A DNA stretch of 64,000 nucleotides, taken from Callorhinchus milii. Lineage: Eukaryota. Of the stretch, positions 1,529 through 4,125 are shown in pieces. The stretch's first letter is position 1, and every line of letters starts with the position of its first letter. Under the pieces are notes generated by a model, which worked only from the letters and a program-made list of their open reading frames with translations, searched no databases and was not told the origin of the DNA. Both the position numbers and the translations under genes were made by a program. The stretch covers positions 84,508,001 to 84,572,000 of the forward strand of contig NW_024704742.1 in NCBI RefSeq assembly GCF_018977255.1, in the 5' to 3' direction.

Positions 1529-2955
1529 TGTTACATCTACTAAGAAGATATAACAATAAATAATAATAAGTCTTGCATTTGGAATAGCGCCTTTCACATC
1601 AGGACGACGTCCCGAAGCACTTCACAGGATATACTGTAAAGTGGAGTAACTGTATTTTGTGGGCAAACAGTCATCTAAATGGATGGTTATGCACAAAAAA
1701 AGTTCTTTGGCTCTAGATTTTGACCCTGAAGGGAAGCTCAATGCTGCCAAGCTAAGTTGTTACTGAACGGTGTGCCTAGCAAGCAGCAGATACTTCAGTT
1801 TTGCAAGTCAAATATATCAACCTACACCTTTGAAGTCCTTTGCACTTGTGTTCTTAATGTAAATTTGAGATGAACAAAGACTAAAAGTTGGAGTTAAAAC
1901 TCATTCCACAAATGGTGAGGATAAATTACAGAGACAGTGAATTAAATTGACCCTGCTGAAGCCCAAAAGCAGACTGGATGAATGTATAAATGCCTTCAGT
2001 CCCCTAACAAGTGCTAAGAATCCTAAGTGGAATGAGCCTGAACAGTTTCAGATAAATTCCTGGATAGTGTAGCAGTGAGTCTATGTGAGCACAAAACATT
2101 TATTGGGCAATCGTACTCAGAGAGATCATTAAGGTGGCTTTTAGGGGAGCAAAGTATGTTTGTTGGGGTACTTAGAAATTCAGACATAACAAGTTGGGAC
2201 AGTGGTTGAGATTTCCATCAGGCTATCAATATAAAACATACAATTGTTGATTCCTCTAAGGTTGCACCTTATAATCCTTTGTGTTAGTTTGAACCAAGAG
2301 GTGTTTTATGTCAGAATGGTCCCTTCTCTTGACCATCACTGGAGTGCAGAAGACAGGACATTACTGAAAGTGTGTCACTACACCTCCTATTTCATTTAAA
2401 AGGATTTCTACTTCAATTCTGTCATCAAGTCTTTTGCATGACCATCCATTCTTAGTTCTCTTCATGTTCAATATATTTTCTGATCTCAAACAAGACTTGC
2501 AAAGGCATTGCTAAAATGGCCTCCAAAAAGCTGCATTTCATCTTTTATACCAAACCCTTTTTTGTCGCCTCAATAACTCTTAAAAATATTAATAATTAAT
2601 AACAATCCTTGTATTTGATGCAGCACCTTATAACATTATTGAGAAGTCTCAAAGTGCTTCACAGAATATACTGTAAAGTTAATTGACTATATATTTTGTG
2701 GGTGAAACAATAAATATTAATGAAGCCAAAATCCATTAAGGTCCACCAAATATACTGTGCGCATTATCTGGGGAGCTTTTTATAGACTTCTCTTAAACTT
2801 ATTTTCAATTTGACTCAGTCAGTCGCACTCCTGCCTCTAGATCAGAAGGTTTTGGATTTAAGGACAGTAGTGGGGATTTTGAGCACACGGTGCAAGGTGA
2901 AACTCCAGTGTAGTCCTTGGATGTTAACAAACTCACGACACCATTCAAAACTGAA

Positions 2956-3563
2956 CAACAACAAAATTACATTTGCAGAGTGGCTGAAGGCTTGCCCACC
3001 ATGGTGGGCCGGGCGAGGCGGGTGAAGTGAAGCAGGCCAGAGTCCGCTGAGCGGAGGGAGCGGGCAGGTTGGTAGGGGCTTAGGAGGTCGTAGAGGTAGG
3101 GGGGAGCGAGGCCATGGAGCAAGGCCATGAAGGATGCGGAGCGGGTCATGGCACGGATGTGGTGGTAGAAAGGATAGTTGAGGGTCAAACAAGACGCCAA
3201 GGTTCCAGATTGGCTTAGTAAGGCGAGAAGGCGCTGACAGGAGCCAATCAGGAGAGCCTCGGTCTTGTTGACATTCAACTGAAGAAAGTTGGCTCTCATC
3301 CAGGACTTGATGTCCGACAGACATTCTGTCAGGACAGCAGTGGTCCTGGAGTCAAGGGTGGAGACAGGGAGATAGAGTTGGGTGTCATCCATATATATGT
3401 GGAAGTTAACCCCATGTCTGTGGATGATGTCACTAATAGAGAGCGTATAAGACGTCCTAAAGAGCTTCACAGCACATACTGTAAAGTGAATGATTGTTTT
3501 TTCTGTGGGTGAATGCGGTAACTAATTTTGTGTACAACAGTGTCCCACAAACAGCCGTGGAAT
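2956..3563 (-). mobile_element. SINE::L2 chimeric copy with internal deletions, flanked by aaactgaa direct repeats
   Basis: SINE body 3449-3563 is joined to L2 RT (FHIYMDDTQLY) and ends in the L2 tail aatgtaattttgttgttg. The junction is the same as at 13715/13716. Confidence 0.88.
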
Positions 3564-4125
3564 AAACTGAAGAAAGTTATCTCTCATCCAGGACTTGATG
3601 TCTAACAGACATTCTGTCAGGACAGCAGTGATCCTGGAGTCAAGGGTGTTTCTCCCTATGTCCTAGAATATATCCTCATATTAGTTGATCCTTCATTTCA
3701 TGAGTGTTTGTGGGATCTTACTAGATCCCGCACAAGGCTCTGCGGGCCTATCGTCGCCATCCTTACCAGGCTCCACAGGCCCCATCCCCCCCCCTCCCCA
3801 CAGGATTGAGTTCAAGATCCATCAGCAGTCGGGCCTTCAGCCAACTCAGATGCAAATCCTCAACTGTCCAGCAGCTTAGGGCATCCTCCCAATATGAAAG
3901 GCATAAACCGGTTGGCGCATTTGCCAACAAATACAATTACCACACTTGACAGCAATTCCCTGAAATGTAAGGATTATTATATTTTCATCAGCTACGTAAT
4001 CCTTCTCTCACCTCTAGCTTCAAACAGCTCTCTCTCTATCTCTCTCCCTCTCTGTCTCTCCCATCACAACCTTGTTGTTATTTTTGTATTGTCGAAAAAG
4101 CACTGTGACCAGCAGTCCAGGTTTG

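What the first reader, a model, noticed from the sequence alone, without database searches (positions are those of the whole stretch)
2948..3648. A locus-specific SINE::L2 junction from just downstream of LURAP1L reappears, inverted, in its intron
Seen: at 13.7 kb an L2 is nested in a SINE with both SINE halves and a tctt TSD present, so the junction probably originated there. The same junction (gaagctctttaggacRtctt|atacgctctct) and shared variants (cacagaaaaaaca, cagtatgtgctgtg, caactatcctttcta) recur on the minus strand at 2956-3563. That copy starts mid-SINE, ends at the L2 (TTG)n tail, lacks the distal SINE half and is flanked by aaactgaa (2948-2955, 3564-3571). It keeps a segment (aagccaatctggaaccttggcgtcttgtttgacc) now missing at 13.9 kb. 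Bases 3567-3648 also repeat about 3278-3360. Inference: a transcript running through the 13.7-kb element (sense to LURAP1L, about 2 kb past its poly(A) signals, or SINE-driven) was reverse transcribed by L2 machinery and reinserted 10 kb away. Alternatively this is an undescribed composite SINE-L2 family.
Basis: partly seen in the sequence, partly recalled or inferred. Interest (0 to 1): 0.7.

Follow-up and report, generated by a model that had tools for sequence, protein, structure and literature searches.

The report
Chimeric L2 insertion copying nearby element
A retrotransposon fragment inside a LURAP-family gene carries about 430 bases copied backwards from an older SINE-plus-L2 element 10 kb away, most likely because a new insertion switched templates onto its neighbour while integrating; this is a rare but known kind of accident with no sign of function.

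Summary
The copy is real. The SINE|L2 junction occurs exactly twice in the window: 13696-13726 (+, copy B) and 3438-3468 (-, copy A). B has both SINE halves and a TCTT duplication, so B is the source.

A is not a simple retro-copy of B. Its 5' 431 bp differ from B at 28 of 376 columns. Its 3' L2 piece differs at 24 of 141 (p=0.003) and shares 2 of 12 B-derived variants, against 10 of 15 in the 5' part (p=0.019). A tree test, however, does not reject A+B there (p-AU 0.24-0.42). A also has three internal gaps and lacks the L2 3' hairpin. The right copy of the 8-bp target duplication is also the end of an 84-bp B-type fragment.

Best reading (0.5): an ordinary L2 insertion whose cDNA switched onto the neighbouring genomic L2 and ran through its junction into the SINE. 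Rivals: retro-copy of read-through RNA (0.18), DNA repair alone (0.17), switch onto nascent RNA (0.10), dispersed family (0.04). No whole genome was available. Laid contigs argue weakly against a large family.

The parts
2948..2955 (-). Left copy of the probable 8-bp target-site duplication; 2 nt overlap the L2 tail
   Evidence: bridged by organism-A contigs 2710-3001 and 2716-3001 from two studies
2954..2976 (-). S4: last 20-odd bases of an L2 with (TTG)n tail; joined to S3 across a 216-nt gap that removes the 3' hairpin
2977..3120 (-). S3: L2 ORF C-terminal piece of the same subfamily as B and the 44.6-kb copy, probably not copied from B
   Evidence: 83% to B, 86% to the 44.6-kb copy; 2 of 12 B-derived sites shared; subfamily clade 98/96
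3121..3135 (-). S2|S3 joint with a 13-nt near-tandem repeat, at a gap of about 288 nt relative to B; probable site of the template change
   Evidence: best change-point falls after B 14339
3136..3448 (-). S2, L2 part: copy of B 13716-14043 (RT region) with its own 43-nt gap and a 34-nt segment since lost from B
   Evidence: 17 differences in 258 columns, A+B clade 93/96; RVT_1 match
3449..3566 (-). S2, SINE part: copy of B 13598-13715, carrying the SINE|L2 junction at 3448/3449
   Evidence: 11 differences in 118 columns
3564..3571 (-). Right copy of the 8-mer; overlaps S2 by 3 nt and S1 by 7 nt
3565..3648 (-). S1: extra 84-bp L2 piece of the B lineage (B 13804-13887), outside the duplication
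   Evidence: 4 differences to B, 5 to 3277-3360; carries the B/A states at B 13810, 13811 and 13840; outer joint covered by contigs 3633-4152 and 3619-4155
11001..11390 (+). Last coding exon of the LURAP-family host gene; AATAAA at 11747 and 11772
   Evidence: PF14854 E=2.8e-42; the paralog name LURAP1L is recalled, not tested
13364..13715 (+). B: proximal part of the older SINE (start approximate), ending in TCTT
13716..14718 (+). B: 1-kb 5'-truncated L2 with 3' hairpin and (TTG)n tail; template of S1 and S2
14719..14772 (+). B: second TCTT and distal SINE half, absent from A

Best explanation
A is one L2 target-primed reverse-transcription event that changed template. (1, shown) An L2 had already inserted into a SINE at 13.7 kb, creating the unique junction. 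(2, inferred) A later L2 of the same subfamily began inserting at 2955 and copied its own RNA from the tail through S3. (3, inferred) The cDNA end left the RNA, paired with the homologous L2 DNA of B 10 kb away, and was extended through B's RT region, across the junction and 118 nt into the SINE, as in synthesis-dependent strand annealing. (4, inferred) It came back and joined the target end through a 3-nt microhomology, leaving the 8-bp duplication. (5, inferred) The duplicated end, which by chance matches 7 nt inside the L2, primed a further 77-nt templated piece (S1) in the same or a later repair. The internal gaps arose during this or afterwards. B stayed in place. Nothing points to a function.
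For: Retrotransposition marks: A ends at the (TTG)n tail and shares nothing with B beyond it. The 6 flank-only bases next to the tail recur at the other end; I estimate about 1 in 500-1000 by chance from the k-mer counts. Two sources: A-B differences 28/376 against 24/141 (p=0.003; non-CpG 15/327 against 13/103, p=0.010); change-point permutation p=0.011, with S2 alone homogeneous (p=0.33); B-derived sites shared 10/15 against 2/12 (p=0.019). Against the 44.6-kb copy, A's private changes are equal in both parts (9/256, 5/140) while B's are 7/256 against 16/140, as expected if S3 came fresh from an active L2 when S2 was copied. B is not specially mutated in S3 (8.5% derived against 4.5-12% in five other segments). 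Precedent: templated L1 insertions attributed to cDNA pairing with nearby homologous DNA (10.1101/2024.08.27.596794, passages); 5' microhomology and flank-derived extra bases in zebrafish L2 inserts (PMC4245944, PMC2666801, passages).
Against: The AU test does not reject A+B as sisters in S3 (p 0.417 with 10 rows, 0.242 with 6). The shared-variant test is not significant with three fixed comparators (p=0.21), and the relative-rate test is significant with 1 of 4 outgroups. These tests reuse the same 141 columns and are not independent. B has a real patch of excess change at 13928-13997 (20 of 70 columns, part of it misaligned templated insert), so B can diverge locally after copying. The in-register crossover that a homology switch should leave falls in the 288-nt gap and cannot be seen. 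Published L1 templates are mostly under 250 bp and within 15 bp of the site, unlike this case. A DNA template cannot be told from an RNA template here. A window scan only notices copies that landed nearby, which weakens the proximity argument.
Confidence: 0.5

Rival explanations
1. One reading: one transcript through B (gene read-through or SINE-driven) was reverse transcribed by L2 proteins and landed 10 kb away; S3 differs by chance, by later mutation of B, or because S2 was later homogenised by gene conversion.
For: Tail, probable duplication and sense orientation; B keeps the 3' hairpin; A+B not rejected in S3; S3 is in B's subfamily.
Against: S2/S3 heterogeneity at p 0.003-0.02. A retro-copy made in trans has about a 2 in 100,000 chance of landing within 10 kb in a genome of about 1 Gb (size inferred from contig totals). 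The conversion variant needs a second rare event.
Confidence: 0.18
2. DNA repair only: an ordinary L2 remnant (S3+S4) already sat at A; a later break was repaired by one-sided invasion of B, adding S2 and S1.
For: Explains the two sources, proximity and inversion. Every joint has a short microhomology or a templated repeat. Other local two-copy pairs exist in the window, and B itself carries a deletion with a templated insert.
Against: The captured tract would have to stop exactly at the old duplication. A's private divergence is the same in S2 and S3, which fits one moment better than two.
Confidence: 0.17
3. Same as the best model, but the reverse transcriptase jumped from L2 RNA onto nascent read-through RNA of the host gene, still tethered at the locus.
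For: S2 is sense to the host gene and B begins about 1.6-1.9 kb past AATAAA at 11747/11772. RT switching to other RNAs is described for L1 (PMC13174262, passages).
Against: Sense orientation is forced by L2 homology, so it carries no information. No RNA-only mark (splice joint, poly(A), defined 5' end) is present in S2.
Confidence: 0.1
4. A and B are two members of a dispersed composite SINE-L2 family.
For: No whole-genome search could be run. SINEs of this kind exchange modules (PMC5499810, passages).
Against: B has both halves and a TCTT duplication; A and B share no ends. Summed contig depth at 3503 is 812 in run X1, against 7.7-21 in single-copy bins and 3.3 million over an ordinary SINE (the tool warns this is no copy number). 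None of the 21 listed non-self L2 pieces passes 3450, but only 32 of about 271,000 pieces were shown. No look-alike among earlier scan notes.
Confidence: 0.04
5. Assembly artefact.
For: No listed contig spans the whole of A.
Against: A and B differ at 7% of S2. Contigs from two studies cross the tail/flank joint with 1 and 0 differences and run 16 and 30 letters into S1 from the right flank.
Confidence: 0.01

Closest known systems
Templated/chimeric L1 insertions formed by an SDSA-like switch of the cDNA onto genomic DNA (22 cases in 10.1101/2024.08.27.596794, passages read; it credits Gilbert et al. 2005, which was not held, so its details are recalled)
   Same: Retrotransposon 3' end plus a duplicated genomic segment at the 5' side; source left in place.
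   Different: L2 clade, fixed and old rather than somatic; template 431 bp plus 84 bp at 10 kb, against under 250 bp within 15 bp; the template is itself a nested SINE|L2.
5' junctions of zebrafish L2 inserts, ZfL2-1 and ZfL2-2 (PMC4245944, abstract start, part 2 of 5 and passages; PMC2666801, passages)
   Same: Short target duplication (5 bp for ZfL2-1), microhomology at both ends, extra 5' bases made by template jumps.
   Different: Extra bases there are described as several nucleotides, largely from flanks; here hundreds, from a homologous element 10 kb away.
L1 5' chimeras and 5' transductions with RNAs (PMC13174262, outline and passages)
   Same: Non-LINE sequence in sense at the 5' end, inside one target duplication.
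   Different: Human L1 with dispersed RNA partners; no local source implied in the passages read.
SacSINE1-CM / CmiSINEs and partner L2-2_CM of the elephant shark (PMC5499810, passages)
   Same: tRNA-Ala-headed SINEs in the window share a 3' end with the older SINE at B and with the L2 tail region, as described for these families.
   Different: 'nested' has 0 occurrences in that paper's main text; its supplements were not read.

Membership tests
L2-clade TPRT insertion | L2 reverse-transcriptase sequence | tested here: met
RVT_1 E=6e-6 (below the curated cut-off) in A; 86% to the long copy at 45 kb, RVT_1 E=5e-17.
L2-clade TPRT insertion | 3' end at the short-repeat tail | tested here: met
   (TTG)n at 2954-2966; no homology to B beyond it
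L2-clade TPRT insertion | Short target-site duplication | tested here: inconclusive
   8-mer on both sides, chance about 1e-3, but the right copy is also the end of S1; empty site not seen
L2-clade TPRT insertion | 3' hairpin needed for stringent recognition | tested here: inconclusive
   Present in B, absent from A today (216-nt gap); it must have been lost during or after copying
Templated/SDSA-type chimeric LINE insertion | Genomic segment duplicated at the 5' side with the source intact | tested here: met
   S2 = B 13598-14043; B complete
Templated/SDSA-type chimeric LINE insertion | 3' part comes from a different LINE template | tested here: inconclusive
   p 0.003-0.02 for heterogeneity, AU p 0.24-0.42
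Templated/SDSA-type chimeric LINE insertion | Template is DNA, not RNA | not testable with these tools
   No mark in S2 separates the two
5' transduction / retro-copy of read-through RNA | Whole insert collinear with, and of one age relative to, one source | tested here: inconclusive
   Collinear but with three gaps; one age disfavoured, not excluded
5' transduction / retro-copy of read-through RNA | Source is transcribed through to the L2 tail | not tested
Composite SINE-L2 family | Many dispersed copies of the junction | tested here: inconclusive
   2 in the window; low summed depth at 3503 and no listed piece across the junction; no genome
Composite SINE-L2 family | Copies share a 3' end | tested here: not met
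   A ends at the L2 tail; B continues into the distal SINE half
Plain inverted segmental duplication | Homology runs into the flanks regardless of element ends | tested here: not met
   Homology stops at the tail and at B 13598

The most novel reading that the evidence does not exclude
L2 reverse transcriptase, while inserting into a transcribed gene, jumped onto that gene's own nascent read-through RNA. This would be a cis-acting RNA-capture route to local inverted duplications, with this locus as a datable germline fossil of it.
Probability: 0.1. Interest if true: 0.6.

Novelty: new member of a known kind. Interest (0 to 1): 0.3.

Why it matters
It is a clean fossil of template switching during LINE integration, readable only because the template carried a unique SINE|L2 junction. 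It suggests that L2, like L1, can copy sequence from homologous neighbours kilobases away, and that unique nested junctions could be used to count such events genome-wide. It is a single dead locus; no function or new element is shown.

Tried and rejected
Whole-genome junction search: no genome held.

State of the site in relatives: runs X15 and X17 (organisms B, C) hold flank contigs at 4420-4926 and 4420-4912 with 54 and 63 other letters, about 11-13%. That exceeds the 7.4% between A and B, so the copy is probably younger than the split, but no listed joint or piece showed their state at A.

RNA: no RNA holder listed.

Splicing as the cause of A's gaps: no GT-AG or GC-AG fit at the 216-nt gap on either strand (read by eye); the other two gaps were not checked for this.

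Pol III master lacking T-runs: A has no T4 run before the tail while B has six; this is post hoc and weak, so not used.

Tail type: A's S3|S4 joint matches the 47-kb type of tail over 9 nt, but that type is 1 of 8 other tails matched; weak.

Linked against unlinked branch lengths gave p=0.006, but other branches also differ between parts, so the test is not specific to A/B.

Older outer SINE part (8/56 against 20/320): not significant (p=0.33).

Literature: each returned only the one preprint; two searches returned none; some searches gave background. From listings and abstracts I saw no L2 or cartilaginous-fish case, but the library lacks most subscription papers.

Earlier scan notes: none near or alike.

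The paralog name (LURAP1L against LURAP1) was not tested.

Full report
Setting. The window holds the last coding exon of a LURAP-family gene at 11001-11390 (PF14854) among many SINEs and L2 fragments. Four tRNA-like SINE heads pass Rfam and two are called tRNA-Ala. An earlier scan note calls this genome elephant shark (unchecked); the SINE anatomy fits PMC5499810 (passages). No whole genome was held. I call the 13.7-kb element B and the 3-kb copy A.

Observation. The junction pattern matches twice in 64 kb, at 3438-3468 (-) and 13696-13726 (+), and never twice in 100 shuffles. B is a 1-kb 5'-truncated L2 (13716-14718) inside a SINE. The halves join in register with 13 other SINE copies and TCTT flanks the L2, so the junction arose at B or at an ancestor of B.

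Anatomy of A, on the minus strand. S1 (3648-3565) equals B 13804-13887. S2 (3566-3136) equals B 13598-14043. S3 (3120-2977) aligns to B 14332-14478. S4 (2976-2954) is the tail. A lacks about 43, 288 and 216 nt; the last gap removes the L2 3' hairpin that B keeps. The S1|S2 joint has a 2-nt microhomology, the S3|S4 joint 2 nt relative to B, and the S2|S3 joint carries a 13-nt near-tandem repeat. A keeps 34 nt that B lost in a deletion filled by a 19-nt copy of adjacent sequence.

Two sources. S2 differs from B at 28 of 376 columns and S3 at 24 of 141 (p=0.003; without CpG columns 15/327 against 13/103, p=0.010). The 11 columns at B 13928-13938 (4 differences) and the gap-bordering columns were left out of both sets. 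A change-point scan over 517 columns splits after B 14339 (permutation p=0.011); S2 alone is homogeneous (p=0.33). Of B-derived sites covered by A, 10 of 15 are shared in S2 and 2 of 12 in S3 (p=0.019). With all comparators, 11 exclusive A=B states lie in the 258 L2 columns of S2 and none in S3, though S3 has more comparators. Against the 44.6-kb L2, A's private changes are 9/256 and 5/140 and B's are 7/256 and 16/140. B is no more derived in S3 (8.5%) than in five other segments (4.5-11.9%).

Against that reading: A+B is a 93/96 clade in S2, but in S3 the tree is unresolved and the AU test does not reject A+B (p 0.417 and 0.242). With three fixed comparators the shared-site test gives p=0.21 (with two, 0.029). 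The rate test is significant with 1 of 4 outgroups. B has a patch of 20 derived columns in 70 at 13928-13997. All these tests share the same columns. I put a foreign S3 at roughly 3 in 4.

Target duplication and S1. Six flank-only bases next to the tail recur exactly at the S1|S2 joint. From window k-mer counts I estimate about 1 in 500-1000 by chance, so S2-S4 probably went in as one unit. S1 lies outside that unit, carries three states found only in A and B, and sides with B against A's own copy at two sites. It ends in 7 of the 8 duplicated bases. The simplest account is a templated addition primed by that 7-nt match, which removes the need for a coincidence.

Evidence from runs. Five runs of organism A in two studies hold 72-74% of the sampled words of 2400-12300. 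On 2001-5000, contigs from both studies cross the tail/flank joint with 1 and 0 differences and reach 16 and 30 letters into S1 from the right; none spans A. Summed depth at 3503, inside the SINE part, is 812 in X1, against 7.7-21 in single-copy bins and 3.3 million over an ordinary SINE. With at most about 80 copies in about 1 Gb, a second copy within 10 kb has a chance near 0.002. None of the 21 listed non-self L2 pieces passes 3450, of 32 pieces shown out of about 271,000. Relatives' flanks differ by about 11-13%, more than A from B; their state at A was not shown.

Mechanism. Tail plus duplication point to target-primed reverse transcription; a foreign 3' part, proximity and inversion point to a local homologous template. 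Together they fit a cDNA that left its RNA, invaded B, copied through the junction and rejoined the target. Only the anatomy is shown; the steps are inferred. Repair alone needs the tract to stop at the old duplication. A nascent-RNA template cannot be excluded.

Comparison. It works like the templated L1 insertions of 10.1101/2024.08.27.596794 (passages), but with a longer and far more distant template, and like the annealing-type 5' junctions of zebrafish L2 (PMC4245944, PMC2666801). Membership of the SDSA-chimera class is probable, not proven. Searches showed no L2 or cartilaginous-fish case in the held library.

Verdict. A real, local, probably chimeric retrotransposon scar; a new member of a known kind; interest 0.3.

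Noticed in passing
window 3685-3980 (+): A second, older SINE with a nested L2 lies head to head with A and is cut by several internal deletions. Its two longer L2 pieces (about B 14224-14311 and 14625-14685) fall in A's gaps, as if inverted homology between the neighbours had been purged.
   Followed up: partly
window 13928-14016: B carries a deletion filled by a 19-nt copy of the adjacent sequence, next to a 53-nt stretch only 70-75% like other L2 copies; it looks like mutagenic end-joining or a patch from another L2.
   Followed up: partly
window 8393-8587 and 33895-34103: Inverted pair of about 200 bp, 85% overall and 92% in the core, with only two copies in the window and no SINE/L2 match; local copy or low-copy repeat.
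   Followed up: no
window 57301-57685 and 58387-58777; 680-851 and 1338-1529: Direct local duplications (87% over 392 bp; 78% over 192 bp); the second has an isolated L2 tail inside one copy at about 1401-1427.
   Followed up: no
window 5637-5787 (-): Diverged 28S rRNA fragment (model positions 2827-2984) about 25 nt behind a SINE tail.
   Followed up: no
window 8981-9294, 37263-37590, 38530-38792, 63261-63573: Young tRNA-Ala-headed SINEs, 92-95% alike, sharing their 3' part with the older SINE family.
   Followed up: no
window 44359-46985 (-): Longest L2 in the window, with frameshifted RT and upstream ORF pieces; same subfamily as B and S3.
   Followed up: partly
window 54173-54435: Tandem array with a 17-bp period.
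   Followed up: no
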